Assembly: GCA_964035545.1 (NCBI GenBank)
Contig: OZ037765.1
Span: 14,084,698-14,148,697, forward strand
Source of the DNA: Bugula neritina
Taxonomy: Eukaryota; Animalia; Bryozoa
Length of the DNA: 64,000 nucleotides
Direction: 5' to 3'
The translations under genes and the position numbers were made by a program. This document shows, piece by piece, positions 1-49,935 of the stretch. Under the pieces are notes generated by a model. It searched no databases, was not told the DNA's origin, and saw nothing but the letters and a program-made list of their open reading frames with translations. Positions within the stretch are counted from its first letter, which is position 1, and the number at the start of each line of letters is the position of its first letter.

Positions 1-3000
1 ACATTTTTCAAGCGCTCTGTGTCTGATTAGGAATGACTGCTCCAAATGTCAGGGACCACCTACAGGGATTGAGGCAAGAGCCCAGAATATATCTACATAA
101 TCATGCTAACCAAGTTGAGAGACTGGCCCAGTTTGCCTACGGCAACCTGGACCGAGAGAATCACCAAACTTTATCATTTGAAGCATTCTCCAGGTTTCTA
201 AACAACTCCGGTTGCAAAGCTACCTCCTGGCTGCTCCGGTGGAGATGATAGAAGCGCCGCTGGACAAGTGGAGGGCCTACTTCCAGGTCCGGAAACCCCA
301 GGGTCCAAACTTTACTGCACAACAACTAGAATCAGAATAGAAAGAGAACTCCACCCACCCTGCCGGCACTCCAAGTAGCGGCTGCTACCACAGCCTCATT
401 GGCCCCCACCAAGTTCTCCATGTTACTGGACATGGTGAAGATGTAGCAGACCCAAGCTGGCAGGCGTGCTCCGTGACTGCGGGACGATTTTGCCAAGCCC
501 TTTCCTACCACATGTTGGGAGTTCAGGTCAGAAGGACATAGGGTGCCTTCAAACACCCAAGGCCTGCGGTAACTTCCACCAACCACAAGCCCGAGCCAAC
601 ACCAGTATCCCGGAGGGTCCGATCTGTGCTAAGGGAGGCATGGGCGGAGCCCATCGCCCCTGGGTGAGAAGCGCCTTGGAGATCTCAGAGACTACGAGGT
701 CTATTCAAACCATTGGCTTGGCCACTCAGCAACCGGTTTGCGGGGTTATCCGACGAGGTTGTGGAGGAAGAGTTATCCTATGCTCAGGAGTTTCTCAGAT
801 TGCCCGCCAAACCTCAGAAAACTCTCAAACTCATCAAGACATGGAAGAGGCTTACTGTAAGAACTCAAGAAATGTCTCCCCCAAAGACTGACCACCCCAA
901 AAGCACCCAACCCTACAATAGCAGCTACTTTCTGCCCGGGAGAAGTGCAGGTAAAGCTGCCACTTTCCTGTTGAATACCAGGTGCACTAAAAACCTGCAG
1001 AGTCGGTATTTTTCCGACACTCTTGGTTCCCAAGAGCAGACGGGTCTCGTGCCACATGATAGTGCACATTGTATGTTGGCGGACAGCTCGTGTATTCCAT
1101 TCTACGGCATCATCACACTATCTGGTAGCATCCGCGATCAGGTGATACACAAGACCTTCATTGTCAGCAACGTGAAAGAAAATGCCATCCTGGGCATGCC
1201 AGTCCTGAAGAAACACTAGTGTCACATGGACTTTCAGAAGTCGGCAGTGGTAATGGCCAGGAAGAAACTTGCTTGTGTGGACAAGTTTGGCAGGCCCTTG
1301 GTGGGCAGAGTACAGGTAGCGCAGGACAGCATTATACCCGAGCGCTCCAAAGCCACGCTACCCTGCAGGTTTAACTGCCGGAGGATCACAGAGCTTGAAG
1401 TTGTGGAGGGGATGCATGGGAGAATCCAACTGGCAAACAGCCTGCTGGGGGAAACTTCTTGGGCTAAAGTTGAAGCCCTCCAAGTGCACACGCTTACAGC
1501 AGGAAGTGAAATTTTGGGGACATGTGGTCATTCGGAACAGTGTTGCCACGGACCAAGAGAAAGTATGGACTGTGAAGGAGTGAACTGCTTCCCAAGACCT
1601 CCATGAGTTGCGGTATTCCTGGGCCTGGCAGAGTACTACGGGCAGTACATTTTAGGATTTGCATGGATGGCGGAACTTTTGAATAGGCTAACCGCTAAAG
1701 GGGTCCGGTAGCATCGCACACAGGAAGAGCAGCAGCACTTTGACCACTCCAAGGACCGACTGGTAGAGGCACCCATCCTGACCTACCCAGACCCACCCAA
1801 GGAGTACATCCTAGACACGAACGCCAGCGACTACAACGTGGGGGCTGTGTCTTCAAGTTCAGGGTGGAACAGTGGTGGTAGTGGCTTACTACAGCAAGGC
1901 TCTATCGGCCGCCATGAAAAGCTACTGCGCTACCAAAAAGGAACTCCTAGCAGTAGTCAAGCCAGTCAAGCACTTCCGGCCACATCTGTATGAACGAATG
2001 TTCAGGTTATAAACTGACCATGCATCACCGGTATGACTGCGTAAGTGAGCCAAACCCTCGAGTCAGGTGACCTGCTGGTAGGAGATTTTTTCTCAGTTCT
2101 ACTGGATAGAGCGTCATGCTGGAACAAAGGTCTGAGCTGTCGTTCGGAGGACTGTAAGCAGTGCCTGCACATAAAAAAGCGGGACAGGGACCCACCGCCT
2201 TGATGTTGAGGAACAGTTGGGGAAGGTCGGGACCTACAGCTGGGAGCAGGGCCACTTGCGGTGTAAAACCTACTTAGATGCTGTCAAAGCACAAATTTTT
2301 TTACTGATGATTTTCATTCTGTGAACAGAGTGGAGGTTTCCCTCATGCCAGCCAATGCGGGACGACTCCGATGAGGACGACAGGACAACTTATCCTGCCA
2401 ACGGTCACCTGATCACTTCGGGTCGTGTTAGCAAGGGTGAGCGACAATGTAGCCAGCCACCAACCCATGAGAACGGATAAATCCCCCCCCCCCCCGTAAG
2501 CACCACACCATCGGACAAGCAGGGCACCCTGCGGTACAGATAGCCGTCTGGAGGCTGAGGCACAATCATTGCGGTGGAACTTAGACCGATGTACCAAGGA
2601 ACTTGAAACGTTGAGACGCCGGCTACGCCAATTGAAGCGGGTAGCAGGAGGCCACTGACACCAACACCCCTTCCTACCCGTTTCAGGAGTGCTGGTGTTT
2701 TCTATTCTATATATTTACCTTGTTCGTGTTTTTTATGATGTTATTGTTTATTATTTCCAGTGTGTTTTACTACTCTAGTATTCCAGTATGTTTTCTTAAT
2801 ATCTCATGTATGTCATAGTGGTAGCTTTTAGTTTGCTTTCACAAGATTTACCTTCCAGATGAGACATTTTATTTTCTGTGGCGTGTTATGTAAAGTGCTT
2901 TACATTTTATTTATTTTTGGGGACCAAGTTTTGTTACTATTATTGAATAAGGGAGTACTTTTTGATGAGGGGAGGGTGTAGTACATTTTGGGAGCTGTCT

Positions 3001-3850: not shown

Positions 3851-4030
3851 CACATTTTAAAATTTTATAATAATAAAATTATTAATAATAATATTAACAT
3901 TGATCAATGGTAGTGGTAACGCTTCTAAATTGAAGTTATTAATATAAATATTATTATTAATATTATAACTAACAGTATTATTTTATTTATTATATAATTA
4001 TATTATAAATATATAATATTAGCTTACAGC

Positions 4031-6939
4031 TGTCGAACAAAAATTTAAAAATAATTAAAATAATTAAGATTAAAAATAAACTTTGCAATTTATAATTTAT
4101 AACTGAATTAAATAACTGAATTAAATAATTGAATCGGATTAAATTGAACCTCTGGTTTAGTCAGATTGGTCAGTTAAAATGAAGCGAAGTTACTTGTTAG
4201 CTTTTAGTTTCAAAATTTCTATATAATTTGCAATTGATTAATCAAAAACAAGAGTTATCTTTGCTCGACAAATATTATGGTTTGGAAATCATGTAGTAAT
4301 GTATATATGTGGTTCTATGTATATTGTGTAATGGTTAGCACTCAGGCTAATATTCTGTGAGACAAATTTGGGATTTGCTCCCCCAGAAGAATTGAAATTA
4401 TAATATATATGTGTTGTATAATATGTATATCTATTTGATAATAATATTGAAGCAAGCAAATTACAATAATAAAATATTACAAGAAATTAGCCAAACCAAA
4501 ACAAAGATTGTCCTAGCGACCCTTTGAAATCTTGCTGTGTTATACTAGCAACAGAAATAGCTAAGTTTGACAATTGGGATAGAAAGGCTTATACAAAATT
4601 GAATACACAATGAGAATTGCAAGTAGAACATCAATATTAAAATATATGCTTTAACATAAACTCATACAGCCTTGAAATAAATTCTTCAATATAAATTAGT
4701 GCAGCTTTAGAATTCAAATATTTTCTCAATCCAAATATTTTCTCAAGTATAAATTTGTGCAGCTTTTAAAATTCAAATATTTTTTCAATGTAAATTTATG
4801 CAGCTTTAAAATTCAAATATTTCTTCAATGTAAATTTGTGTAGACTAGAAACAAATTTCTCAATTCAAATATTTCTCAAATATAAATCTGTGCAGCTTTG
4901 ACATAAATTTTCTCAATTCAAATATTTCTCAAATATAAATCTGTGCAGCTTTGACATAAATTTTCTCAATTCAAATGTTTCTCAAATAAATTTGTGCTGC
5001 TTCAGAATCAATAAATCAAATCAACAGATTTCTCAAAATAAATTTGTGCTGCTTCAGAATCAATAAATCAAATCAACAATTTGTGCTGCTTCAGAATCAA
5101 TAAATCAAATCAATAATTTCTTAAAATAAATTTGTGCTGCTTCAGAATTAAAAGAACATTGATAAACTTGTTAGTTCAAATAGCGTAGTACAAGAAGTTA
5201 ATACATAAATATATCCATAAAAAATTGTAATATTACTTACTGCAATCAATACGTGTATTGTCAGTCTCTTGAAATTTCCCTTAGCGTTAGCAATTACTAT
5301 TATTACGGTTAATACTAATATATATATTTTGTATTCCGATTATCTTTGTATACCAATTAATTAATTACTCAATTACTCAATTACTGATTTTCCAGAGACC
5401 CGGTGGCTCCTTTTATATCGGATCTTCTTGGCGGTGGTTCAGATTTCAAGGATACCGGCAACAACTGGTGAAAACTGGCCGACGAAAACTGGCGGCAGAA
5501 ATTGACGCGGAATTCGGTCAGGTATGTTGTTGTTTACAGCCAAGATGGGGATTGACGTAAGAGGATCTGCTATTGTTGACTCATCTTTGTATTTTGTAGG
5601 CTATATCATCGTTAATTGTACCTCAGTCTATAATTTGAAGAATAATTTTTGACTACAATATGGTAAAATATATCAGCCAATGGTCACGTGTTGATCTCTA
5701 TAATAGGTTATATTAATGTTAAATAATTTATTAAGCATCTAAATTGTTGTATATCATCTATATGTTGGCATGAATAAATATTCACACATATACATGTATA
5801 TATCTCTATTTGTAAACAGCATCTGTTATATGTTTCAGCTTTTTATCCATTTCCATTTGTTCAGCAATTAGTGTTTTATTTCAAAAGTCAGTATCACAAA
5901 TTCCAACACGTGATCATGGCATGTAGTACTGTCTCAACACCGCAATTACTTATTTAAAAGCCACATTACTAAATAATACTATTTGCATTATCTAAAAGAA
6001 GCTATAAAACCATGTGTCATATATATTAATTATTGCATCAAGCAATTTCTATGCAAGACCAAATATTTAACTTACTCAAAACTTGTACATTTGAATTTTT
6101 AACTTCACTCAATTACTGGGCTTCATGTATCATATAACTTTTGAATGTACTTGAATGTTGTAGATAAACTGTAGTCTACATACCGTGGTGAAGCAGATAT
6201 AATAATTTATAATTGCATCAACCTGCTGCAGCAGCCATCCCACTGGAAGTCTCAAGCAAACGTCAGCATCGCCGAAGCCATATTTTATTAAGCTGGCAGA
6301 ACATCTCAGATACACAACTTGTGAAGTACAGAAGTAAGAATTAACATAAGAGAACAGTATATGTATAATCATGCATCCTACCGAGAATATAGTTTTTTAA
6401 GAATTTTCTGAGAACAATGGTAATATATATATATATAGATATATATCAATACTTTTAGTTTAATCACTTATGACATAATTTATAGAAATTCTACTTCTAA
6501 CATTATTGCAAAATGTTTCCCGCAATCCTTGCAAACTTGTAGAAATGAGGCTATCTAACATTTCTATTTTGTTTATATTAGCGAATAGTTTCAGTCTTTA
6601 TATCGGTCACCATGAGGATACAATTGTTTTGACACTTCTATTCCCATCAATAAAATAAGCATTTTCTACGTAAAAGAGAAACTATGTCTGTTTACCTGGT
6701 AGATTATTTTGCAAGGCCATGATAGAGTTTTGACTTTGCAAGTTATTTTGCAAGGCCATGATAGAATTTTGAATTTCCTCTCCACTACTTTTACTAAAAC
6801 TCTTAAGCTATACTCATATATTCAAACCATTAGTTCTAATCATAACTACTATTAGCATATCATTCTGTAAAAAACATCAAGTTGCTGTGCAGTATCTACT
6901 CTGCAAAATATAAAGTACTGTGTAATCTCTGATCTGACA
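4031..6939 (-). repeat. 3' LTR (2,909 bp)
   Basis: Starts tgtcgaacaaaaattt and ends gatctgaca on +. No difference from 13688-16596 was seen by eye. The 80-aa ORF at 6130-6372 recurs identically at 15787-16029. Confidence 0.95.
4680..5150. repeat. Tandem repeat array inside the LTR (~35-53-bp units, core aaatttgtgcagcttt / tttgtgctgcttcagaatcaataaatcaaatcaa); copy at ~14337-14807
   Basis: About ten imperfect units are directly visible, including two exact 53-bp copies (~4858-4975) and four tttgtgctgcttcagaat copies. Confidence 0.85.
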
Positions 6940-8334
6940 AATCCAGTATCTACTCTGCAATCAGAACGGCCTCGTTCTGAAATATCATACTTAGGCAACT
7001 CTAACTGTAATACTTATAATAACTCAAGCTGTGTAACTTAAACTTGTAAGTGTTGGATAAAAATAAAGGTAAAACTAACAATAACTGATAAGTATTAGTA
7101 TAACATAAGGCTAAGACAAAAGTAAAAGTAAATCATAAATGATAATCAATAACTGCAAAATTACAAATATTAATATATAACATAAGCAACATCTAGGTTT
7201 AAATCTAAGTCTAATGATAATATAATTATATGTAATTGTATAAATCTACTCACTCTCACATTCATATTGTCATCCTATAAGTATATGATGAATGAATAAT
7301 AAAAATCGTACTCCTATTGATAAACTTTCCAATCATAGACTAAGGACCGAATGATAGTTATCATGCTAGTACCGTGGACAAATCATAGTAAGCTCTTTAA
7401 TAACAATAATAGTATTTTTTCAACTAGTTCTAAGCAATAAATCTACTACACCAATCAGAGAGGGCCTTTGTATCGCAAAGGGAGACAACTGCATATGCAT
7501 TCCAAGTTCCATAGTATTATATTGTGCGCAAGCATAATCATACTATTCAGTTCTCATTAGTAGTTATACACGTTCGCATTTTGACATCGATGCTCTATCG
7601 TCAATATAATACCTATGGGATTAACAAGTTAAACTAAAACCGATCTCAATTCTGCAAACTTAAATTATTGAAGTCCTAAAGAAAAGGTGAGCATACTCTA
7701 GTTATTGTTATTATTAAATTTCTGATTATCATGTAATGTGTTGTAATTTAATTTTAGTTTGGGCATAACATTAACTATCAAAATAGTAAAAGTTATTAGG
7801 TAACACCCGTAGTCATATTCATATTCATTTTGATATTCAATTACTATTAGTATTAGTGAATTACATTAATTTTAGTAAATAATAACCATATTGATATTCA
7901 GCTAGTTTTGCTTTGAAATTAATCGTAGTCAAACTTAATAAATTAATCATAGTGTCATGCTCCTCGTAATAGTCAAAGCGATTGTAGATATAAAATCAAA
8001 TAATAAATTGACAACTTATTTATAACCAATAATCATATAGTTATATTGATTAACTTCAAGTGATAATTACTTTATGACGATGGCAATAATGCCCGCAATG
8101 CATTAAATTATACTTATAAAGTTGTAGTTATCATAGATTATTAACATCAGTGCCATAGCATCAGCCTAGTGAGTAGTTTCGCTTGTTTACTGTATAAATT
8201 TAAAATGGTTTTAATCTCATCAAAATCTATTTAAGCAATAATTATCTTATAGTTATTAGTCGAGTAAAACTTAAAGTGAAGTAACATCAAAAATATCTTT
8301 CCCAATAGAATTATCAAGAGTTTATCTTAACATC

Positions 8335-8650
8335 ATCTATCATCAAGAACATTGTCTTGGAATTAAAGAGACTGCAGTAAAATTAGAAATTAAAATATTA
8401 TATCACCAAGAACTCAGCTTGGAATTAGTAATCATCAAGAACTCAGCTTGAAATTAGTAATCATCAATAATTTTATCATAAATTGAAAACACTGCAGCAA
8501 AATTAGAAATTCAAATATACCATCAAGAACTCAGTTTGGAAATAATAATCATCAATAATTTTATCATGAAATCGAAACACTGCAGTAAAATTAGAAATTC
8601 AAATATACCATCAAGAACTTAGCTTGGAAATAATAATCTTATCTTAAAAT
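8335..8650. repeat. Imperfect tandem repeats (catcaagaactcagcttggaa / actgcagtaaaattagaaatt) in the element's 3' non-coding region
   Basis: catcaagaac recurs at about 8341, 8404, 8433, 8521 and 8609; actgcag(t/c)aaaattagaaatt recurs three times at ~89-120-bp spacing. Confidence 0.8.
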
Positions 8651-10286
8651 TAAAATAACTACGACAAAAACCGAAAGTGGAAAGATACATTGGGAACATT
8701 CAAATAAAAGTTTACTCTTCACTTCAAAAGATAAATTCTTGCAAAACTATGATTTGGTAATATTAATCATCATATGAAATTATTATAAAATTTTGTTACT
8801 CATTTTAACTGGACACAAAGGGTTATTTCATTTGATTAGTTTACATACAGCTACGAAAATAATAAAATACTTGCTTAACATTATCAACCAAATAAGCCTA
8901 TTTTTTACATTGCTTTACATTTTTCACATAGAGAATATTGCTGTCATATAACTATTTGATTTTACTCTAAGCCACTGTTGTTGTTAGTCATGGAAGCCAC
9001 TTTACTTGCAAGGTAGAAAGTTTTATCTTAATAAGTCAACAGTCACAATGGCATAACCAAATCAAAATATCCCTCAAATACTCCAACAGGCAACTCTGCT
9101 CAACCATTAAGTATGCTTAGGTTATTACTACTTTATTAATTCACATACTTTTTAGTCAAGCTTAGGATAAGAATCAGCAACTATATACCTAAAGATTAAA
9201 TGTAAGTTCCTGTAAGAATGCAAATTGCACAGTGATCAAATTTGCAATAAAGTTGAAAAGAAAAATCAGAATTTTGTTGGTTTAAAGGTAATGACTGTGG
9301 TTTGCCACCAAAAATTTGGAAAGAAAGCTAGAACCTTTGTGTAATACTGACAGCTCTCATAAATTGAGGTCTAGGTATTTAAGATAAAACGTGCTGTTGG
9401 ATGTCTACAGCAAACATTTGACAAGTAGATCTCGTAAGATCTCACATCCATGCAGGCCAAGGAAGTGCCTGATCAGGTGTACAGGGATTAGCATATTAGA
9501 TTTCTTTTACCTTAAAACTTTAGGCATTGTAAGTGTATGTAACCCCACCTTCTGTACGAATTTTCGAGTCAAATGTTAGGTAATACATAATATTATCATA
9601 CCTTTCAGACCGAAGATGGAATTCAGCTGTTAAGTTGTCCATTAAAGGGCTTTTGTGAAAGTAGTACAACTTAGGTCCAGCCATTCATTTACAATAAAAC
9701 AAAGATAATTAATAAAGCATTTTTTTCAAATTTGCAATTTTGATTTGGATATGTGCACTATGCATACATGTAGCTATCTTTAGCAAATTCTATTGATTTG
9801 ATAAGTATAGTAATATAATAATAGCTATAATAATTAATACAATAATAGCTATAATAATTAATACAACAAGGAATATAATATTGGGTATAATAATAGATTA
9901 AAATACTGGGTATAATATTGAATATAATAATAAATATGGATGCAGTTTAAAGTCTTGGCCCAGGACTATAGCACTAATTTGCACAAGTTGTAACTAATTA
10001 TCTCTGTGTTTTAGTTGACTGAGCAGAATGACCTACCAAAGTAGATGATAGACAAACAGACAAGCCCATACCATAGTACTGCGACCTCAGTTCAGGTGTC
10101 GAAAGGATCAATTAATAACCAATTGGTAAGTTTCAAGTCTATCAGGCTACCATTCATAACTAGTAAACAGCATCCAAATTATAAACATAGTATAGGAGGT
10201 CTAGAATGATAATAGTTTGATTAAATATAGTAAGCAATGGCTGTAATTTGCAGGGTTATAAATGTAATTTAGATAAATATATTATA

Positions 10287-13109
10287 CTACATATGTTTCT
10301 GGGTAATATAAAAATTATCCTTCAATTCAAACCTCAAACCTTGTTTCTTGTTCAGTCTTTCATCTCCAAAGAAGTGGAAATACATTTGGATTGTTGCTTC
10401 CCATCGAGAACAGAGATAGGCTTTCTCCTGTAGTATCAGAGGCTTTGGTTTGTAGAGCTGTACAGTCATGGGAATTACCTTCTCCGTCGAATTTCCGGGA
10501 TTTGGGCAGTCAATTCTTTCTGGCAGATTCAGTATCAGCGCTGGTTGGAATCTTCTGCTGTTAGCGGTGCTACATAACATTGGTTCTTCGGAATGGCCTT
10601 GAACTTTAGCTAGGCAGATTGAAATTATCATTGTCAAGGCAATGACAAATGGGATCCAGTTTGAAAAGGTCAGTCTGTTTCCACCTCCCGTGGTTTGTTG
10701 TTTTTCATCATCGTGTTTCCTGGACAAGTGTGTCAAGTTCTCCTGGTTTGTGCCTGTATCTGAGATGAGTTTTCTTTTGGGTGGATCTTCAGTAGTTGTT
10801 ATTGCTTTCTTCATCTTCTCCCAACTGATAGGTGTTACCGTGACAGGCGATGTTCTGGGTGACTGAGCATCTTTTGAAGTTGGTGTATCAGGTCTTGCAA
10901 CGCTGGTGATTGTTGGTATGTCATTGACTGTGCTAGAGTTGGAAGGTGTGTTTCTTGTGTAGAGATTATGCTCATCTATGAATTGTACAACACGGTCTCT
11001 AGGTTCGTTTGGTTGCTCACGTCTGCTGCGGCATGTATAGTGATGGTGTCCTCTTCGACCACAATTGGTACAGACAGGTCTTCCGTCCATGTCAAACTCT
11101 CCTCCATTGTGTTGTTGGTTGTATTGATGTGCCTGCTGGAATCTACGTTGATGTTGTTGAGATCTCTGAAATCTATTTGCAGAGGGTTGAAATCTGGCTG
11201 GTGCTTGGAATCTTCCTCGTCGCTGGAATCTAGCAGGTGGTTCTTGAAATCTGTATGGTGGCTGTTGGTTTCTGTATGGTTGGTGTTGGGCTGGCATACG
11301 GTGTTGAGTTTCATCTATGTTTCTTCGGAAGTTGTCTCTCCTGTTATTCCATTGCCATGTGGTCTCTGGTCCTCTATAGTAGGAGTGGAATCTCTGCCAT
11401 GTGTCTGGATCTGGCTCCCTGCTGTTATGTTGTCTTCTAAAGCGGCTGGAGTCCTTATGAGAGTAGAAGTCTCGGTTTGGTCCGAGAGGATTCCTTCTCA
11501 TATTGTCATCTCTCCATCTGTGTCTGGCCACTTCATTAGCATAGTTTGCCCTTTCCTTCTCCCGCAGCTCTAAGGCTTTCAAGCTTCTTTTGAGTGACTC
11601 AATCTCCTGGTCTTTCTTCTTATCACTCTCAATCGTGTTGATAGTTGTTTGGTTAACAACATCCTGCAATAATAATTGATTGGTGTGCTCGTATCTCTGA
11701 GCAACCTTGAACGCTTCATCAGAGGAAGTGATTTGGCTATTATTTAGCATCCCACGCTGGAAAGTGATGGGGAGCCCTTTTATGAATTGGGCCAATATAA
11801 TTTGGTCCCTGGCATGTTCATCAATGTTAGGATAAGCTCGCTTCGCCATTGCACATATAGTGGAGTAGAACTTTCCAACTGACTCTGTATCCAGCTTCTT
11901 CCTGCTATTCAAGTCAAAGCTTGGCACTACTCCTCCTGAGTTGATGAACTCTTGATCCATCTCCTGTATTAGTCCGTAGAAGTCTTCATTAAGGCTAGGA
12001 TATTGGTTTATTATCTTAGTGTAAGTTATCTTAGCACCATCCTTAAGATATAGTGCTAAGATTTTGGGCCAGGATTCTTCTGGGATAGAGAGTGCTCTGG
12101 AGTGCATGATGAAGTTCTCCTTGAACTCGTTCCAGGTCAACTCGTCGAGTGGACTGTTGGCCCATTTTTCCACATCTGGAAGTCTGTTTGTCACTGCGAT
12201 GATCTGTTGCTTGACTGGCATTGTTTGAGATATTGGAGTGACAGATCTTGCTCCATAATGGGCATTTCTTCTATGTTTGTAATCATCTTCTTTGTATCTC
12301 CTGTCATCTTCCAATGAGAGCCTGGGATAGTGGGAGTTGCCCTTCTTTGCCGAATGTCTGTCATCATGTTCTTGCGAAGGGAGATAATGTTGGGATTGGG
12401 GAAATAACTCCATGTCAGGTGAAGGTTGTCTTCTCTCATCAGGTTGTGAGCTTCTGTGTTTACTGGGATTAAGGGGTAGCCATTCATCCTCGGAGTCGTC
12501 TGAAAGACATTCATGTAGTTGTGTTCCATAATAATAATCCCTCCTCTTTGAAGGCTGGGCCAGCATATGGCTATATTCGTCTCCTTCACTTCTATGTTTC
12601 AAGATAGATTGTCTTTTCCTTTTGGATTGATGATATTCTGGCTCTTCCTTGTCAAGGGAGTGAGATGACCTTGATGGATGATTAATTGCTTCTGGGTATT
12701 GGAAATTCCTCCTTGTAGTTTTGGGCCTGACATCTGGTTCAGGGGAGTTGTCCCGGAATAGATCAGGGGAGTTGTCCCGGAATAGATCTGGGGAGTTGGC
12801 TTCTGATCGGTGTTGCCTTCTCCTGGGAGATGGGGATGTTTCACAGTTGTACTCATCTACGGTCAGGAATCCTTCATCATCCTCATATTGTTGGTCACGT
12901 TCCAAGTCAGGTAGTTGTGTGGGTGGTAGTTGCGGTGGAGCTGGTACATTAGTGTCATGTTGTGGCTCCCTATAGGCATGGCGGTGTGCTGCAGCCTCCC
13001 TGGCTAAGCTTTGAAAGCTGGTAGGGGCTTGCTTTTGTTTTTGGGGCTTTTCTGGGAGTCCGGTGATACGGCGGAGCAGGTTTGATACTCCTCTGCCAGG
13101 TTTACTCAT
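10287..13109 (-). CDS. Gag polyprotein (disordered N-terminus, Gypsy-type capsid, CCHC knuckle) fused in frame to a signal/TM helix and a truncated class-III-glycoprotein-like ectodomain; ~940 aa from ATG 13109
   Basis: Uninterrupted ORF; the first ATG (MSKPGRG) is preceded by an A-run. Capsid motifs W.EF.E.F...W...LALYLKDGA...ESV..F...A.RAYP...ILAQFIKGL lie at ~12183-11685. CX2CX4HX4C (CTNCGRRGHHHYTC) is at 11072-11031, the hydrophobic helix WIPFVIALTMIISICLA at ~10658-10608, and the Cys-containing segment PMLC...LP..IDCP...VQLYKPK...AYLC...YFHFFG at 10595-10341. Confidence 0.9.
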   Translation of the reverse strand: MSKPGRGVSNLLRRITGLPEKPQKQKQAPTSFQSLAREAAAHRHAYREPQHDTNVPAPPQLPPTQLPDLERDQQYEDDEGFLTVDEYNCETSPSPRRRQHRSEANSPDLFRDNSPDLFRDNSPEPDVRPKTTRRNFQYPEAINHPSRSSHSLDKEEPEYHQSKRKRQSILKHRSEGDEYSHMLAQPSKRRDYYYGTQLHECLSDDSEDEWLPLNPSKHRSSQPDERRQPSPDMELFPQSQHYLPSQEHDDRHSAKKGNSHYPRLSLEDDRRYKEDDYKHRRNAHYGARSVTPISQTMPVKQQIIAVTNRLPDVEKWANSPLDELTWNEFKENFIMHSRALSIPEESWPKILALYLKDGAKITYTKIINQYPSLNEDFYGLIQEMDQEFINSGGVVPSFDLNSRKKLDTESVGKFYSTICAMAKRAYPNIDEHARDQIILAQFIKGLPITFQRGMLNNSQITSSDEAFKVAQRYEHTNQLLLQDVVNQTTINTIESDKKKDQEIESLKRSLKALELREKERANYANEVARHRWRDDNMRRNPLGPNRDFYSHKDSSRFRRQHNSREPDPDTWQRFHSYYRGPETTWQWNNRRDNFRRNIDETQHRMPAQHQPYRNQQPPYRFQEPPARFQRRGRFQAPARFQPSANRFQRSQQHQRRFQQAHQYNQQHNGGEFDMDGRPVCTNCGRRGHHHYTCRSRREQPNEPRDRVVQFIDEHNLYTRNTPSNSSTVNDIPTITSVARPDTPTSKDAQSPRTSPVTVTPISWEKMKKAITTTEDPPKRKLISDTGTNQENLTHLSRKHDDEKQQTTGGGNRLTFSNWIPFVIALTMIISICLAKVQGHSEEPMLCSTANSRRFQPALILNLPERIDCPNPGNSTEKVIPMTVQLYKPKPLILQEKAYLCSRWEATIQMYFHFFGDERLNKKQGLRFELKDNFYITQKHM

Positions 13110-13665
13110 TTTTTTTTTTATGCTGCAAATGTACTTAGCAACACACAAACACAATGCAGCAAGTAGCAAATAGAAGAATGTGTATATATATTGTATTTAT
13201 ATTTTGTGAACAAATAATTGTACTGATAAATATTTGTTGCTCTTATTATATCAACTCTTTAATTGCAAGCAACAAAAACTGTTGGACTGGAAAAGCATGT
13301 ATATACATATATAAAAATTAGTATACAGCAGTATGATAATTTTAAGTAGCTGTGTGTAGAAATATTGTTAAACAGCACTATATTATGTTTATCATACAAG
13401 TTTCAAGAATAGCCAATATAAGATAAGGTAACTCTAAACTAGTTATAGGGTAACTCTAAACTAATTATAATTATTACATTGAATATTTTAGTATATTAGC
13501 ATTAATTAGTTCACAAGATATATGATTTGCAGACAATGTAGCAATAATATAAAAGCTTAGAGGATAAATATACATATATGTATTAATCAATCAAACGCAA
13601 GCAATTTATCACAGGCCCTATTAAAGAAAACTGGCTAGTATGTCCTACACAGCAAGATTTCTCTA

Positions 13666-13684
13666 AGCCCAACAGAAGCTCCAA
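13666..13684 (-). promoter_or_regulatory. Putative primer-binding site (TGGAGCTTCTGTTGGGCT)
   Basis: Begins with TGG 4 nt downstream of the 5' LTR end on the minus strand and would pair with a tRNA 3' end ...CCCAACAGAAGCU-CCA. The cognate tRNA was not identified. Confidence 0.6.
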
Positions 13685-13687
13685 ATT

Positions 13688-16596
13688 TGTCGAACAAAAA
13701 TTTAAAAATAATTAAAATAATTAAGATTAAAAATAAACTTTGCAATTTATAATTTATAACTGAATTAAATAACTGAATTAAATAATTGAATCGGATTAAA
13801 TTGAACCTCTGGTTTAGTCAGATTGGTCAGTTAAAATGAAGCGAAGTTACTTGTTAGCTTTTAGTTTCAAAATTTCTATATAATTTGCAATTGATTAATC
13901 AAAAACAAGAGTTATCTTTGCTCGACAAATATTATGGTTTGGAAATCATGTAGTAATGTATATATGTGGTTCTATGTATATTGTGTAATGGTTAGCACTC
14001 AGGCTAATATTCTGTGAGACAAATTTGGGATTTGCTCCCCCAGAAGAATTGAAATTATAATATATATGTGTTGTATAATATGTATATCTATTTGATAATA
14101 ATATTGAAGCAAGCAAATTACAATAATAAAATATTACAAGAAATTAGCCAAACCAAAACAAAGATTGTCCTAGCGACCCTTTGAAATCTTGCTGTGTTAT
14201 ACTAGCAACAGAAATAGCTAAGTTTGACAATTGGGATAGAAAGGCTTATACAAAATTGAATACACAATGAGAATTGCAAGTAGAACATCAATATTAAAAT
14301 ATATGCTTTAACATAAACTCATACAGCCTTGAAATAAATTCTTCAATATAAATTAGTGCAGCTTTAGAATTCAAATATTTTCTCAATCCAAATATTTTCT
14401 CAAGTATAAATTTGTGCAGCTTTTAAAATTCAAATATTTTTTCAATGTAAATTTATGCAGCTTTAAAATTCAAATATTTCTTCAATGTAAATTTGTGTAG
14501 ACTAGAAACAAATTTCTCAATTCAAATATTTCTCAAATATAAATCTGTGCAGCTTTGACATAAATTTTCTCAATTCAAATATTTCTCAAATATAAATCTG
14601 TGCAGCTTTGACATAAATTTTCTCAATTCAAATGTTTCTCAAATAAATTTGTGCTGCTTCAGAATCAATAAATCAAATCAACAGATTTCTCAAAATAAAT
14701 TTGTGCTGCTTCAGAATCAATAAATCAAATCAACAATTTGTGCTGCTTCAGAATCAATAAATCAAATCAATAATTTCTTAAAATAAATTTGTGCTGCTTC
14801 AGAATTAAAAGAACATTGATAAACTTGTTAGTTCAAATAGCGTAGTACAAGAAGTTAATACATAAATATATCCATAAAAAATTGTAATATTACTTACTGC
14901 AATCAATACGTGTATTGTCAGTCTCTTGAAATTTCCCTTAGCGTTAGCAATTACTATTATTACGGTTAATACTAATATATATATTTTGTATTCCGATTAT
15001 CTTTGTATACCAATTAATTAATTACTCAATTACTCAATTACTGATTTTCCAGAGACCCGGTGGCTCCTTTTATATCGGATCTTCTTGGCGGTGGTTCAGA
15101 TTTCAAGGATACCGGCAACAACTGGTGAAAACTGGCCGACGAAAACTGGCGGCAGAAATTGACGCGGAATTCGGTCAGGTATGTTGTTGTTTACAGCCAA
15201 GATGGGGATTGACGTAAGAGGATCTGCTATTGTTGACTCATCTTTGTATTTTGTAGGCTATATCATCGTTAATTGTACCTCAGTCTATAATTTGAAGAAT
15301 AATTTTTGACTACAATATGGTAAAATATATCAGCCAATGGTCACGTGTTGATCTCTATAATAGGTTATATTAATGTTAAATAATTTATTAAGCATCTAAA
15401 TTGTTGTATATCATCTATATGTTGGCATGAATAAATATTCACACATATACATGTATATATCTCTATTTGTAAACAGCATCTGTTATATGTTTCAGCTTTT
15501 TATCCATTTCCATTTGTTCAGCAATTAGTGTTTTATTTCAAAAGTCAGTATCACAAATTCCAACACGTGATCATGGCATGTAGTACTGTCTCAACACCGC
15601 AATTACTTATTTAAAAGCCACATTACTAAATAATACTATTTGCATTATCTAAAAGAAGCTATAAAACCATGTGTCATATATATTAATTATTGCATCAAGC
15701 AATTTCTATGCAAGACCAAATATTTAACTTACTCAAAACTTGTACATTTGAATTTTTAACTTCACTCAATTACTGGGCTTCATGTATCATATAACTTTTG
15801 AATGTACTTGAATGTTGTAGATAAACTGTAGTCTACATACCGTGGTGAAGCAGATATAATAATTTATAATTGCATCAACCTGCTGCAGCAGCCATCCCAC
15901 TGGAAGTCTCAAGCAAACGTCAGCATCGCCGAAGCCATATTTTATTAAGCTGGCAGAACATCTCAGATACACAACTTGTGAAGTACAGAAGTAAGAATTA
16001 ACATAAGAGAACAGTATATGTATAATCATGCATCCTACCGAGAATATAGTTTTTTAAGAATTTTCTGAGAACAATGGTAATATATATATATATAGATATA
16101 TATCAATACTTTTAGTTTAATCACTTATGACATAATTTATAGAAATTCTACTTCTAACATTATTGCAAAATGTTTCCCGCAATCCTTGCAAACTTGTAGA
16201 AATGAGGCTATCTAACATTTCTATTTTGTTTATATTAGCGAATAGTTTCAGTCTTTATATCGGTCACCATGAGGATACAATTGTTTTGACACTTCTATTC
16301 CCATCAATAAAATAAGCATTTTCTACGTAAAAGAGAAACTATGTCTGTTTACCTGGTAGATTATTTTGCAAGGCCATGATAGAGTTTTGACTTTGCAAGT
16401 TATTTTGCAAGGCCATGATAGAATTTTGAATTTCCTCTCCACTACTTTTACTAAAACTCTTAAGCTATACTCATATATTCAAACCATTAGTTCTAATCAT
16501 AACTACTATTAGCATATCATTCTGTAAAAAACATCAAGTTGCTGTGCAGTATCTACTCTGCAAAATATAAAGTACTGTGTAATCTCTGATCTGACA
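13688..16596 (-). repeat. 5' LTR (2,909 bp)
   Basis: Direct repeat of 4031-6939. It lies upstream of the Gag ORF on the minus strand and is followed by the PBS-like sequence. Confidence 0.95.
15040..15074 (-). promoter_or_regulatory. LTR core promoter: TATA box (TATAAAAG, 15074-15067) and initiator TCAGT (15044-15040); predicted TSS ~15042; copy at 5383-5417
   Basis: The minus strand reads gaTATAAAAGgagccaccgggtctctggaaaaTCAGTaatt. The TATA starts 32 nt upstream of the Inr A, a canonical spacing, and points toward the Gag ORF. It sits in a local GC-rich island. Confidence 0.7.
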
Positions 16597-17779
16597 CAGC
16601 TTCTCCCCTTGCCCCACGCTTTCACTCAAGAAAATGGGATTCAGGTAAATATAAATTTAAATTAAAATAATAGACAAATTTATAATTTGCATCATCAATA
16701 TATTATTATGTATTTAATTAATAATTTGATATTAATAAATAAATATAATTTGATTATCAATAAATTTAAAATGATAAAACATTAACTTTTGCACGTGTAT
16801 GTTGAATTTTTCTATTACTAATAGGCAAAAAGGCTGTTACACATTTTTGCGACTAAACTTGAAATAACTGAGCCACAAAGTGAAAAGTCAGCATCAGCAC
16901 ATTAGCGTTTCCTTCTTCTTTTGTGTTTTGATATCGTTTGCCGCCTGCTACCGCAACTAGACTTAGTACCAACGAGATCACGATTGTGCTGGTGCTTTGT
17001 ACTACCTTAAGCCAATAAAATCATCCGTTGTTTTTCCAACCGCCGTCCATAGTTGAAGTTCAGCTTTGAAATAATAATAATTATGATGATATTATTATCC
17101 TGTCCCATAATATTATATAAAATAAAACCGGTGGGTTTGACCCAGTTTATAAAAGTTCTAAGGTCTAAGAGATATGAAATGTAACATATGAAGCAACATC
17201 ACGATTGCTTATGTTATTACAATTTACAATAATATTATATAATTATTCATTCACTTGGCTATCAGTTTCAAAAATGTAAATCTTTATACATTTAAATAAA
17301 TCATATATAATAGAACATTATATGGTTGGATCAAAATTTAGTGTCTATATATACATATATATTAGATATATCTGATAATATGGTAATAAAATTATCTCTA
17401 AGGTTATTGTTCTACAAATGGTAAATAAATTAATAATAATTGCATGGTGCAGGTGAAGCTTGCTTCCATGTACCATATTATCATTTATGCCCAAGCACAG
17501 CATATAATATCTATATAGCTTATATATGGCATGGGCATGAAGTTTTTAATATTGTGTACTTGCGCTTTAAATTTCACGGTGTGCTTTATAACATCCTTAA
17601 ATTAAAACAGACTTGACCTGCATAAAAATAATGTAGCTCAAAAAAGGATTTCATACCTACCTCAACTTATTTTGCTCCCATTTTCAAGGGTTGTCTTTAC
17701 GATATAGACATCATGTTTTAATAGAGTTATCTGTTCTTGATCACCGTACGTAAACTTCTATGGTTTATAATCTGCTGCA

Positions 17780-18654: not shown

Positions 18655-18868
18655 GAGCAGCCGCGCGTGGTTTAGGGGTTAGGGCGTTTGCCTAGTGACC
18701 ATGAAGTCATGGGTTCGAGCCCCAACAAAGGCCATCGGTGATGTTAGGAAGAGCATCCGGTCATAATTGCTCCTGTGCCCCATCTGAATAAGTCCTTAGC
18801 CCGATTTAACAGAAAAACTTCCATCAGGGGTTTTCTCACAGGGATGGCGACTATAAACTTGCGAGAGT
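18655..18868 (+). mobile_element. tRNA-derived SINE
   Basis: Pol III A-box-like tggtttagggg and B-box ggttcgagccc (18712-18722). The body tgatgttaggaagagcatccggtcataattgctcctgtgcc...ggatggcgactataaacttgc is shared with the inverted copy at 49712-49935. Confidence 0.85.
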
Positions 18869-19924: not shown

Positions 19925-21995
19925 TCTAACTGCACTGTCCCGTTCAAGTTATTGTGGAAGGATTCTATCATGGCTTTGAAGGGCAGCAATCTTCGGAGGA
20001 AAGATTTTGAATAAACCCTCTCTGCTGTCCATATCAAGTGCCTTTGTCAGGTCAATAAAAGCAACATAGAGAGTCATCCTTTGCTCTCTACACTTCTCCT
20101 GGAGCTGGTGCAGATAGAAGATCATGTCAATTGTTGACCTTTCAGCATGGAAACCACACTGTGACTCCGAGTAGATCCGTTCAGCTAGTATCTGTAGGCG
20201 AACCAGGATAACTTTGGCAAATACTTTGTCAACGATGCTAAGGAGTGATATGCCTCTGTAGTTGTTGCAGTCACTTCTCTCTCCGTTGTTCTTGTAGAGT
20301 GTGGGAGTTTTTGCATCTCGTGTCTTGTGTTACAGCCAGGGTTGGGGTAATTGTAATTTGTAGCCTAATTGTAATTGGTTGTAATTAATTACATTTTTTC
20401 AAGTAACTGAATGTAATTTGTAATTGATATATGAAAATGTAATTGTAATTAATTACATTGCTAATGTAATTGAATTTTACAATCACTTTATATTTACATA
20501 ACAATTACTTCAATTTTTAAATCTTATAAAATTCATATCTTCCCTGCCTTGCCTACTGTTAAATAAAAAGTTCAGATTAATTTAATGTCGTATTTTTCAC
20601 CCTATTCGTTACTGTTGAGAACAAAGAAGGTTGTCTGTTGTCAAAATTGCCCCTGGTAGTTGGACCCCAGCAGTGAGATTAGATAACTTCTACTTGTCTC
20701 TTGTGAAAACAAAAGTAATTGTAATCGTAATTAATTACATTTATTTTATATGTAATTATAATTGTAATTGACAAATTCTCAAGTAATTGTATTTTTAATT
20801 AGTTACATTCATATGTAATTGACCCCAACCCTGGTTACAACACCTTTTTCCCAGCACTGATGAAGAACTTCATGCAAGGGATGTAAAAGAGTGGTCTTGC
20901 AGCACTTGATGAGATCAGGAGGTATGTCATCATTCAGGTAGGTGCCTTGCCCTGGGTCAAACTATAAATGGCTTTATTGGGTTCATCAACAGTGCGTTTG
21001 GCATCAAGATTATCAATAGTAGACATACATTCGACTGCATCAAAAGCAAAGGAAGACACAACATTCTGGTGAGAGTATAGGTTGGTGTAGTGTTTCATCC
21101 ATCTCTCCATCTGTTTTCCTTTGTTGGTGATGAATTCCTCAGTAGCGGATTTGAGTGGGCCGACATGTTCTGGATTGGTCTCATTGCTTTCTTGGTGCCA
21201 TCATACTCTGATATTTCGTGTAGCGGTTGCACTTTAGATACTTTCGCTGAGCTCAGTCTAGTACTCATTGGCTCAACGCCTGGCAGCCTGTCTAGTTTTA
21301 CTCCTGGCAGCTCTCAGTATACAAAGGTTTCGTTCACTTGGTGATTGCTTGTATTCTGCTAGGGCAGCATGTTTAGCTTCAATGATCGGCGTCATCTCTG
21401 TTGACTTTTCTTCAAACCAATTTTGTGAATTTAAAGTCTTTTTACCAAAAGTGGTCAAGGCTGCACTGTGCGTAGAGTTTTACAGGATCTCCATTTTGCG
21501 AGGGAGAGAATTCCTTTTGAAAAACATCAGCGAATTGGTCCACAAGGTCAAGCTGTGATATCTTGGTAATGATGTCAATGCTAGGTTCCCAGTTTTCTTG
21601 GTATGGTGGAACCGCTTTGGTAGGCGGCCTGATTTTGCAGCATACAAGAGAGTGGTCTGTATCACAGTCTGCACTGTTATAGGAGCGGGTGTGGAGGACA
21701 TCCCCGATAGAATTACGTGTAGTAGGGATCAAATCCAGTTGGTGCCATTAGTTGGAACGTGGGTGTCTCCAAGCAACCTTGTGTTGTGGCTTGGTTTTGA
21801 AGTAAGTGTTGGTAATGCACAAGTTGTAGAGAGCACTGAGTTTGAGCATTCTCTGGCCATTGTCATTCAATCTTTCAACACCAAAGTTTCCTAAGCAAGA
21901 GGGCCATGAGTCATGATCGACGCCCACCCTGGCGTTGAACTCGCCCAGTAGAATCGACTGTTATGGGACCGGGATGTTCCTGATGATGGATGCGG
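19925..21995 (-). mobile_element. Degenerate RTE-clade LINE (AP endonuclease C-terminus through RT N-terminus), interrupted by a MITE
   Basis: Minus-strand fragments ILLGEFNARVG, WRHPRSN.WHQLDL, VLHTRSYNSADCDTDHSLV, NWFEEKSTEM, DCNNYRGISLLS, SESQCGF..ERSTIDMIF..QLQEKCREQR..LYVAFIDLTKA are typical of RTE LINE ORF2. Frameshifts and stops are present. Confidence 0.9.
20337..20833. mobile_element. Non-autonomous hAT-type DNA transposon (MITE, 497 bp)
   Basis: Perfect 12-bp TIRs cagggttggggt (20337-20348) and accccaaccctg (20822-20833). 8-bp TSD gttacagc/gttacaac (one mismatch). Dense subterminal gtaatt/aattac motifs. The LINE homology resumes on either side. Confidence 0.85.
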
Positions 21996-49711: not shown

Positions 49712-49935
49712 ACTCTCGAGCAAGTTTATAGTTGCCATCCATATGAGAAAACCTCTGATAAAAAGGATTTTTGTTAAATTGGGCTATAAAGATTTATTCA
49801 GATAAGGCACAGGAGCAATTATGACTAAATGCTCTTCCTAACATCACCAAATGGCCTTTGTTGGGGATCGAACCCATGACTTAGTGCTTACGAAGCAAAC
49901 GCTCTAGCCCCCAGGGCCTAGACCATGGCTACTCC
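49712..49935 (-). mobile_element. tRNA-derived SINE (second copy)
   Basis: Its reverse complement aligns along its length with 18655-18868, including the B-box ggttcgatccc. Confidence 0.85.

What the first reader, a model, noticed from the sequence alone, without database searches (positions are those of the whole stretch)
10287..13109. Pol-less LTR element whose only protein is Gag fused in frame to a membrane helix and a rhabdovirus-G-like (class III fusogen) ectodomain fragment
Seen in the sequence: one uninterrupted ORF runs capsid, then CCHC knuckle, then ~125 aa of low-complexity linker, then WIPFVIALTMIISICLA(KVQG), then 85 aa PMLC...LPERIDCP-x12-VQLYKPK-x3-QEKAYLC-x7-QMYFHFFG with an N-glycosylation sequon (NST). 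Protease, RT, RNase H and integrase, which normally sit between gag and env, are absent. From established knowledge: the vesiculovirus G N-terminus has the same order of motifs (CP...LQVKMPK...QADGWMC...CDFRWYG, with the aromatic pair at fusion loop 1), and some invertebrate LTR elements have captured viral fusogens. Inference: this derives from an enveloped Gypsy-like retrovirus carrying a class III env. The frame has stayed open across the gag/env junction while the element remained mobile, which suggests selection for a Gag-TM-ectodomain protein. Possible roles are a membrane-anchored capsid that buds its RNA in vesicles, a satellite that hijacks a helper's Pol and Env, or a dominant-negative decoy.
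Basis: partly seen in the sequence, partly recalled or inferred. Interest (0 to 1): 0.88.

Follow-up and report, generated by a model that had tools for sequence, protein, structure and literature searches.

The report
Capsid-only satellite of bryozoan enveloped retroelement
This is a recently inserted, multi-copy jumping gene, likely of a bryozoan, that lacks its enzymes and most of its virus-like envelope gene and likely spreads by borrowing them from an intact relative; the capsid-envelope fusion is the usual layout of its already described family, and the envelope stub is likely a decaying leftover.

Summary
Observation confirmed; interpretation largely not. The 940-aa ORF lies in a 12.6-kb element with identical 2,909-bp LTRs, a 4-bp target duplication and no pol. 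Close copies are Bugula neritina proteins. Residues 300-530 fold as a retro-capsid. Residues 839-923 are 40-46% identical to the start of an envelope protein whose full-length relative folds like herpes gB/rhabdovirus G (class III).

The gag-env junction, however, is inherited. Relatives carry Gag, signal helix, Env, membrane anchor and then Pol in one frame, and GAG-ENV-POL order is published for bryozoans. This scan also noted that order before, in flatworms. So a 3' deletion of most of env and all of pol explains the element.

The stub covers about 85 of 537 ectodomain residues and a quarter of the fusion domain. It is the most diverged part among copies (21-27/85 versus capsid 3-16/230), and sister copies lost a conserved cysteine. 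dN/dS was not properly measured.

Best reading: a helper-dependent, TR-GAG-like satellite with a relic stub. Open possibility: the retained signal helix is selected to tether Gag to membranes; a second family shows an independent Gag-plus-helix derivative. Interest 0.35.

The parts
4027..4030 (.). left target-site duplication CAGC
   Evidence: same 4 letters at 16597-16600
4031..6939 (-). 3' LTR, 2,909 bp, with internal 40-58-bp tandem arrays at about 4680-5170
   Evidence: 100% identical to 13688-16596; repeats
6940..10286 (-). 3.3-kb AT-rich (29% GC) non-coding 3' region; no env or pol remnant; no clear polypurine tract (best 9 purines of 12 near the LTR)
   Evidence: no Rfam family at gathering score
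7687..10014 (+). 2,328-nt intron (GTGAGC..TTTTAG) of a likely spliced RNA antisense to gag
   Evidence: joint 7684>10013 GT..AG in 2 of 4 runs laid, X7 and X8, both guessed to be RNA, two studies; splice signals
10015..10125 (+). predicted short antisense exon; likely non-coding
   Evidence: strong donor GTAAGT at 10126 (no joint seen); the difference at 10057 in all X7 contigs there makes codon 5 of its only ATG frame a stop
10287..13109 (-). single 940-aa ORF: Gag - linker - signal helix - env stub - short tail
10287..10340 (-). 17-codon tail and stop, read-through into AT-rich DNA past the deletion break (break lies at about 10326-10342)
   Evidence: GC 0.29 versus 0.45 in the stub; homology to relatives' env ends at 10326-10353; longer contigs leave the window at 10342
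10341..10595 (-). class III env stub, aa 839-923: N-terminal strands plus the first fusion-loop hairpin only
10596..10658 (-). hydrophobic helix aa 818-838, predicted internal signal sequence with a V-Q-G|H cleavage motif
   Evidence: only strong hydrophobic segment (Kyte-Doolittle 2.18 over 19 aa); same place and motif type in relatives; no SignalP available
10659..11030 (-). low-complexity linker aa 694-817; knuckle-to-env gap 149 aa versus 331-372 aa in relatives
11031..11072 (-). CCHC zinc knuckle aa 680-693
   Evidence: weak Pfam zf-CCHC_4 (E 0.29)
11520..12212 (-). capsid domain and coiled coil, aa 300-530
   Evidence: 45% identical to Gag of P0009/P0023
12213..13109 (-). low-complexity N-terminal part of Gag with in-frame internal repeats
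13110..13687 (-). 578-nt leader with 6 upstream ATGs
13666..13683 (-). primer-binding-site-like sequence starting TGG, 4 nt inside the 5' LTR; cognate tRNA not identified
   Evidence: no matching 12-mer in the PBS table of PMC13524379
13688..16596 (-). 5' LTR, 2,909 bp
16597..16600 (.). right target-site duplication CAGC

Best explanation
This is a young, multi-copy LTR retroelement without pol that likely arose from a gag-env-pol errantivirus by a 3' deletion of most of env and all of pol, and that likely moves by supplying its own capsid while borrowing reverse transcriptase and integrase from an intact relative in the same host.

Shown: the parental family encodes Gag, linker, hydrophobic helix, class III ectodomain, second helix, PR, RT, RNase H and IN in one frame. 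This element keeps that frame up to about 85 residues into the ectodomain, then runs into non-coding DNA and stops.

Inferred: (1) In the parent, the first helix is an internal signal sequence that threads Env into the ER lumen and is cut by signal peptidase, flavivirus-style, leaving Gag and Pol cytosolic. (2) Here the same cut would release a ~100-residue stub that cannot complete the fusion domain and is likely degraded, leaving Gag held by the helix until a protease frees it. (3) Selection acts on capsid and knuckle, which co-assemble with helper Gag-Pol and package this RNA; the stub is a passenger that stays mostly open because the family is young and a stop there costs little.
For: Inherited layout: P0023 has Gag, knuckle, linker, helix and 454 aa of env in one 1,533-aa ORF, collinear with ours. 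P0034 runs Gag-env-TM-protease in one 2,027-aa ORF, and L002 runs env-TM-PR-RT-RH in one 1,212-aa frame. L001 has all parts in frame 3 with two stops. PMC13524379 section 5 reports GAG-ENV-POL order and HSV/gB-type env for Bryozoa.

Recent mobility without pol: identical LTRs and a target duplication. Copies with the same junction and the same env end in P0002, P0005, P0006, P0008 and P0021.

Longer-env relative in the host: in 4 of 4 runs a contig fits only the stub at about 83-89% and continues unlike the window below 10342 (255 letters or more in 3 runs, 21 in the fourth, tables 7 and 8).

Stub relaxed: it differs from the 5 sister proteins at 21-27 of 85 residues, against 3-16 of about 230 in capsid (Fisher p 5e-5 to 2e-12) and 1-3 of 43 at the knuckle. 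Differences do not avoid columns invariant in 7 relatives (5-6/16 versus 15-20/67, p 0.36-0.56). All 5 sisters lost C868, Y886 and E917; ours lost T905 and Y912. A frame-shifting 1-base loss at 10593 is seen in one X7 contig, and P0004 leaves the frame just after the helix.

Stub incomplete: the fusion domain spans model residues 52-190 and the stub ends near 85.
Against: Our copy keeps 13 of 16 invariant env columns, more than its sisters (11-12). The 10 best-supported single-letter differences in the stub split 5 non-synonymous to 5 synonymous, against 72% non-synonymous expected under neutrality (P 0.12). That is a weak hint of constraint, though the list mixes sister copies with the longer-env relative.

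The frame stays open to the same end in 3 of the 8 long Bugula-type proteins and past the break in 6 of 8 (P0003 and P0004 shift; these may be assembly errors).

The autonomous partner was not read: no genome is held, so its pol is inferred. Signal-peptidase cleavage was judged by eye. P0021 has F at -3, which breaks the motif, and flanking charges give no topology signal. No clear polypurine tract or cognate tRNA was found.
Confidence: 0.6

Rival explanations
1. Membrane-tethered Gag satellite: the stub is a relic, but the signal helix is kept by selection because it anchors Gag to the ER or budding membrane. There the satellite capsid would meet helper Env and Pol and be wrapped into the helper's enveloped particles or vesicles.
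For: The helix differs at only 1-2 of 23 residues between our copy and 5 sisters and at 0 of 23 in 3 sister pairs, while the linker and stub on either side differ at 12-32%. In another family, P0010 has Gag almost identical to full-length P0023, then a diverged but open ~330-aa linker, the helix with an S-Q-A|D motif, no env ectodomain, and a tail like the end of that family's pol frame (39-41% identical). This is an independent env-less, pol-less derivative that also kept the helix.
Against: Helix conservation is not significant against its flanks (Fisher p 0.14; 0.46 against the linker alone). P0003 loses the helix by a frameshift. In the P0010 family, P0011 and P0014 stop before the helix. 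Any 3' deletion that spares Gag will often spare the helix by chance. P0010 rests on one contig.
Confidence: 0.3
2. The env stub works as a decoy or dominant-negative fragment that binds helper Env or its receptor, for the element's or the host's benefit.
For: This copy keeps three cysteines and the first fusion-loop aromatics (13 of 16 invariant columns); the N873 sequon is kept in all six stub-bearing copies.
Against: The stub has about 35 of 140 fusion-domain residues and lacks the second loop, the central helix (model 274-326) and the trimer core. It is the most diverged region, and all 5 sister proteins lost a conserved cysteine. The element is mobile and multi-copy, not a fixed host gene.
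Confidence: 0.07
3. One reading: a gag-pol-env parent lost pol, and the new gag/env junction was kept in frame by selection for a chimeric protein.
For: Our linker is about 200 aa shorter than in relatives (149 versus 331-372), so a second in-frame deletion is possible. Some relatives' linkers hold an RNase H-like relic (E 5e-6 to 5e-5 against a 3-sequence profile), hinting that pol-like DNA once lay there in deep history.
Against: All relatives in which both ends are visible already have Gag and env in one frame with pol downstream. Our own linker has no RNase H-like match. The published order for Bryozoa is GAG-ENV-POL.
Confidence: 0.03

Closest known systems
GAG-ENV-POL, HSV/gB-type errantiviruses of Bryozoa, Nematoda and Platyhelminthes (Chary & Hayashi, eLife 2026, PMC13524379; 10 bryozoan entries from Bugulina stolonifera, Cryptosula pallasiana and Membranipora membranacea in Supplementary file 1)
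   Same: Host group, env type (class III), env directly after gag, LTRs with a TGG primer site a few bases inside.
   Different: This element has no pol and only about 16% of the ectodomain. The paper catalogued intact elements only: 'non-autonomous' occurs 0 times and 'Bugula' 0 times in its main text. LTRs here are 2.9 kb, against 0.3-1.4 kb in the 6 bryozoan rows with LTR coordinates.
Nematode ERVs with env before pol (Sacco et al. 2022, doi 10.1099/jgv.0.001739; not held, known from the passage in PMC13524379 and recalled)
   Same: Env placed between gag and pol. As recalled, one continuous gag-env-pro-pol frame with a nyamivirus-like glycoprotein, which fits the relatives here and the nyamivirus G hits.
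   Different: Autonomous, in nematodes; the single-frame and nyamivirus details are recalled, not read.
TR-GAG non-autonomous LTR retrotransposons of plants (passages of PMC8704663)
   Same: Two LTRs, one ORF encoding Gag, no pol, transposition that needs an autonomous partner.
   Different: Animal host, descent from an enveloped element, C-terminal signal helix and env stub on Gag, 12.6-kb length.
Mouse IAP, derived from env-bearing IAP-E (passage of PMC12992720)
   Same: Loss of env from an enveloped ancestor, followed by spread in the genome.
   Different: IAP keeps pol. Its Gag targeting to the ER (recalled) uses an N-terminal signal, not a C-terminal helix.
sORF2/FAST-like proteins of MDG1-group retrotransposons (abstract of PMC11952523)
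   Same: An env-less LTR element with a membrane helix that might aid spread between cells.
   Different: sORF2 is a separate small protein in autonomous elements; here the helix is the old Env signal sequence fused to Gag.

Membership tests
GAG-ENV-POL HSV/gB-type errantivirus (intact) | paired LTRs and target-site duplication | tested here: met
GAG-ENV-POL HSV/gB-type errantivirus (intact) | tRNA primer-binding site | tested here: inconclusive
   TGG-start site 4 nt inside the 5' LTR; no matching 12-mer in the paper's table; host tRNAs not available
GAG-ENV-POL HSV/gB-type errantivirus (intact) | Gag with capsid fold and CCHC knuckle | tested here: met
   (best E 2e-3; all 40 rows shown are capsids)
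GAG-ENV-POL HSV/gB-type errantivirus (intact) | class III (gB/G-type) env sequence directly after gag | tested here: met
   stub homologous to relatives' env; relatives pass the Pfam Monjiviricetes_fusion cut-off and fold like gB/G
GAG-ENV-POL HSV/gB-type errantivirus (intact) | complete ectodomain with C-terminal membrane anchor | tested here: not met
   about 85 of 537 ectodomain residues, no second helix
GAG-ENV-POL HSV/gB-type errantivirus (intact) | intact pol after env | tested here: not met
   so it is a derivative of the family, not an intact member
GAG-ENV-POL HSV/gB-type errantivirus (intact) | RT/IN placed in Ty3/gypsy by phylogeny | not tested
   no RT in the element; relatives show PR-RT-RH-IN order and a GP[Y/F] motif after the integrase core, but no tree was built
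TR-GAG-like non-autonomous LTR element | LTRs with a single Gag-encoding ORF and no pol | tested here: met
TR-GAG-like non-autonomous LTR element | multiple copies and recent insertion | tested here: met
   7 cluster members plus P0021; identical LTRs
TR-GAG-like non-autonomous LTR element | autonomous partner in the same genome | tested here: inconclusive
   contigs that fit the stub and run on past the break in 4 of 4 runs; their pol not seen; no genome held
truncated-Env decoy or restriction factor (concept recalled, e.g. Refrex-1, suppressyn) | purifying selection on the Env fragment | tested here: inconclusive
   protein-level tests point to relaxation; site counts 5:5 are uninformative; no copy DNA for dN/dS
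truncated-Env decoy or restriction factor (concept recalled, e.g. Refrex-1, suppressyn) | fragment is a complete, independently folding domain | tested here: not met
   ends about 35 residues into a ~140-residue fusion domain
sORF2/FAST-type cell-cell fusogen elements | separate short transmembrane ORF | tested here: not met
   3 sense ORFs of 30-54 aa in the 3' region, none with an obvious membrane helix by eye

The most novel reading that the evidence does not exclude
Enveloped gag-env-pol retroelements repeatedly spawn satellites that shed Env and Pol but keep Gag plus the Env signal helix as a selected C-terminal membrane anchor. Their capsids would dock on the membrane where helper Env accumulates and hitch a ride between cells: defective-interfering, membrane-tethered Gag satellites, seen here and independently in the P0010 family.
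Probability: 0.25. Interest if true: 0.62.

Novelty: new variant of a known kind. Interest (0 to 1): 0.35.

Why it matters
The parent class is published and Gag-only satellites are known from plants, so the basic result is modest. It records an active, helper-dependent satellite of an enveloped bryozoan retroelement, which intact-only surveys would miss. It also shows from sequence that these elements make Gag, Env and Pol as one membrane-threading polyprotein, which explains the apparent chimera. If the helix proves to be selected, it would be a simple natural case of a capsid anchored by its C-terminus, and would bear on how env-less elements spread between cells.

Tried and rejected
Searches on the stub alone:
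- Pfam and PDB sequence searches gave nothing meaningful; the PDB hits were to a glycosyltransferase at E 0.28 or worse.
- Env profiles against PDB sequences gave 1 chance hit and 0 hits.
- ESM Atlas with homologue P0005 gave no usable hit.

Collections:
- No whole genome is held, so no copy census or partner search was possible.
- Metagenome scan with the whole protein: 0 of 65 candidates confirmed.
- Viral contigs: 0 of 76 and 0 of 85 confirmed.
- No RNA holder is on record for the stretch. X7 and X8 are only guessed to be RNA, and contig depth was not used as expression.

Element features:
- No env or pol remnant in the 3' region, no Rfam hit at gathering score, no tRNA gene in the window.
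- The idea that the antisense exon encodes a peptide was dropped: its ATG frame is stopped at codon 5 in X7 contigs and has indels near 10100.
- The different C-termini of P0005, P0006, P0007 and P0021 look like a predicted splice from the ORF end into the 3' region. They were not supported by a joint and were left out of the tail count's interpretation.
- The post-integrase tail of L001 as a second env copy got only a weak profile match (E 0.012 over 22 positions): not established.
- Positive-inside charge bias around the helix: none.
- No complex prediction was run, since no binding is claimed.

Literature:
- 0 papers for 'gag-env-pro-pol'.
- 0 papers with 4 of 5 terms retrotransposon / non-autonomous / truncated env / membrane-anchored Gag / signal peptide.
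- 0 papers for the IAPE term set.
- 3 papers, not read, for bryozoan LTR terms; none appears by title to be about such elements.
- Sacco 2022 and Ribet 2008 are not held.
Full report
1. The observation. The ORF is real: 940 codons on the minus strand from 13109 to 10287 with no stop, with motifs in the order given. It lies in a 12,566-bp element bounded by two identical 2,909-bp LTRs with TGTC..GACA ends and a CAGC target duplication. A TGG-start primer-site-like sequence lies 4 nt inside the upstream LTR on the minus strand, which agrees with the gene's direction; its tRNA was not identified. A polypurine tract is not clear. No other long ORF lies between the LTRs apart from shadow frames over the gene, and translated searches with pol and env of relatives find no remnant in the 3.3-kb 3' region. 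Identical LTRs of this length mean a very recent insertion, although the element has no enzymes.

2. Host and copies. No genome is held. The nearest proteins are P0002 and its cluster of 7, of which 5 are named Bugula neritina, plus P0021, also Bugula; the host is therefore likely this bryozoan or a close relative. P0002, P0005, P0006, P0008 and P0021 have the same Gag-linker-helix-stub order and lose env similarity at the same place. P0003 shifts frame before the helix and P0004 just after it; these two may be assembly errors. Hundreds of short contigs laid along the element in each of 4 runs, many 80-95% alike, also point to a multi-copy family. P0021 resembles our copy in the capsid (3 differences in 231) but the sisters in the stub, which suggests recombination between copies (inference).

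3. Capsid and envelope identity. The model of aa 300-530 (7-sequence alignment, pLDDT 70) retrieves only retro-type capsids in the 40 rows shown: PNMA2, Arc, HERV-K, MLV, Ty3. The best E is 2e-3. The stub alone finds no family, but an exhaustive search found 6 proteins at E 1e-3 or better, and a profile of these brought 11 loci. The stub is 40-46% identical to the env start of P0023, L001 and L002. Of 17 alignment rows, 7 match Pfam Monjiviricetes_fusion, 5 weakly match the rhabdovirus fusion domain and 1 weakly matches herpes gB; P0034, L005 and L006 pass the curated cut-off. The L002 ectodomain model is of low confidence (pLDDT 50) and TM-scores are low (0.2-0.3), yet all listed PDB hits are herpes gB (best E 9e-12), and the top viral hits are nyami-, rhabdo- and chu-like G proteins (best E 1e-18). 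Model residues 52-190 superpose on the fusion domain of Mokola, rabies and Chandipura G (Z 8.0-8.2, rmsd about 4, 111-125 aligned). The stub ends near model residue 85: it has the first hairpin and fusion loop but not the second loop, the long central helix or the anchor.

4. The junction is inherited. P0023 holds Gag (31% identical to ours over 685 columns), knuckle, linker, helix and 454 aa of env in one ORF. P0034 runs Gag-env-anchor-protease for 2,027 aa, L002 runs env-anchor-PR-RT-RNase H for 1,212 aa, and L001 has knuckle through integrase in one frame broken by two stops. Of the 11 loci, 4 show knuckle and env start in one stop-free frame. L008 has gag and env in the same frame with stops, and the other 6 are broken there or do not reach gag; none has PR, RT or IN between gag and env. 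PMC13524379 reports that bryozoan, nematode and flatworm elements carry only HSV/gB-type env and are arranged GAG-ENV-POL, and that the ectodomain may be flanked by two membrane segments. From this paper I saw the abstract, section 5 part 1 of 2, section 14, search passages, and bryozoan rows of Supplementary files 1, 4 and 5. Figures, including the env alignments of Figure 5-supplement 1, were not visible and may show the single-frame layout. Two earlier notes of this scan record the same order in flatworms. So nothing had to be deleted between gag and env, and an open frame there needs no special selection. A 3' deletion at about 10326-10342 is enough: GC falls from 0.45 to 0.29 there and homology ends there. 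In 4 of 4 runs a contig fits just the stub at about 83-89% and carries on unlike the window below 10342, as a longer-env relative in the same host would. Whether that relative has pol was not seen. Our linker is about 200 aa shorter than in relatives, so a second, in-frame deletion is possible.

5. The helix. It is the only strongly hydrophobic segment. Relatives have one at the same place, ending in small-X-small motifs (AQA, TKA, CNA, VDG, ADA, ARG; ours VQG) a few residues before the conserved PMxC. By established signal-peptidase rules, judged by eye, this is an internal cleavable signal sequence. With the second helix after Env it gives the parent a cytosol-lumen-cytosol polyprotein (inference). 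The product here would thus be Gag with a C-terminal anchor plus a released stub, not a stable Gag-TM-ectodomain chimera. P0021 has F at -3, against the motif, and flanking charges are balanced.

6. Selection. Against 5 sister proteins, the stub differs at 21-27 of 85 residues, capsid at 3-16 of about 230, knuckle at 1-3 of 43, linker at 12-18 of about 100 and helix at 1-2 of 23. Stub differences hit columns invariant in 7 relatives as often as variable ones, and all 5 sisters lost C868, Y886 and E917. A neutral simulation gives 20-29% protein divergence for 10-15% DNA divergence, in line with 25-32% seen. Contigs over the stub differ from the window by roughly 10-17%, but they are not the same sequences as the proteins and some are the longer-env relative. 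Against relaxation: our copy keeps 13 of 16 invariant columns, and the 10 best-supported letter differences split 5:5 (P 0.12 under neutrality). One way to reconcile these is that our lineage re-acquired this stretch from a helper by template switching (untested). A proper dN/dS was not possible. The helix's low divergence is suggestive but not significant (p 0.14).

7. A parallel case. P0010 shares a nearly identical Gag with P0023 up to about residue 575, then a diverged open linker and helix, then a tail resembling the end of that family's pol frame, with no env. It looks like an independent env-less, pol-less derivative that kept the helix. It is one contig, and two other members of its cluster stop before the helix.

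8. Antisense RNA. Two runs guessed to be RNA, from two studies, join 7684 to 10013 with GT..AG ends on the plus strand; the two other runs laid do not. The window has a canonical donor and acceptor there. The RNA would run against gag and looks non-coding. Its role is open; a source of silencing small RNAs is a guess.

9. Comparison and verdict. The element works like a plant TR-GAG (passages of PMC8704663) and descends from the published GAG-ENV-POL gB-type errantiviruses. It is not an intact member of that group, failing the pol and full-env tests. Env loss followed by spread has a precedent in mouse IAP (passage of PMC12992720). The sORF2 route (abstract of PMC11952523) uses a different kind of protein. 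My searches found no paper on pol-less derivatives of these elements, but the library lacks most subscription journals. Verdict: a real feature and a new variant of a known kind. Interest 0.35; the tethered-Gag reading has about 0.25 probability and would merit about 0.6.

Noticed in passing
window 439-2990 (+): An older, decayed Gypsy element lies left of the insertion: broken RT/RNase H pieces and a purine tract followed by TGTAGTAC at about 2965-2985. The young element sits about 1 kb into or beyond its likely LTR.
   Followed up: partly
window 7687-10014 (+): Canonical intron spliced in two runs guessed to be RNA, antisense to gag; a further strong donor at 10126 whose acceptor was not found.
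   Followed up: partly
L001 7335-8078: The pol frame continues after integrase into a second signal-like helix and a ~230-aa cysteine-containing domain; only a weak echo of the env fusion-domain motif (E 0.012). An unexplained secreted-looking accessory domain.
   Followed up: partly
L006, L007, L008 and P0034, linker between knuckle and env: RNase H-like relic in the gag-env linker (E 5e-6 to 5e-5 against a small profile; weak Pfam RT_RNaseH in P0028 and P0030), a possible trace of how the gag-env-pol order arose.
   Followed up: partly
P0010 (ENA protein, no locus held): Gag-linker-helix joined in frame to the end of its family's pol-frame tail: an independent env-less, pol-less derivative.
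   Followed up: partly
window 18675-18867 and 49715-49911: Two ~80-87% alike copies of a short repeat in opposite orientation with tRNA-like boxes by eye; likely a SINE.
   Followed up: no
window 41047-42375 (+): Single open frame encoding a TTC5-like TPR/OB-fold protein (Pfam TTC5_OB E 5e-32); likely a host gene.
   Followed up: no
window 19949-20329 (-): Reverse transcriptase fragment (Pfam RVT_1 E 5e-10), unrelated to the element studied as far as tested.
   Followed up: no
window 28599-28960 and 27335-27526: Tandem arrays of 40-bp and 24-bp units.
   Followed up: no
window 8360-8638: 88-bp direct repeats inside the element's 3' non-coding region; possible cis-acting signal, untested.
   Followed up: no
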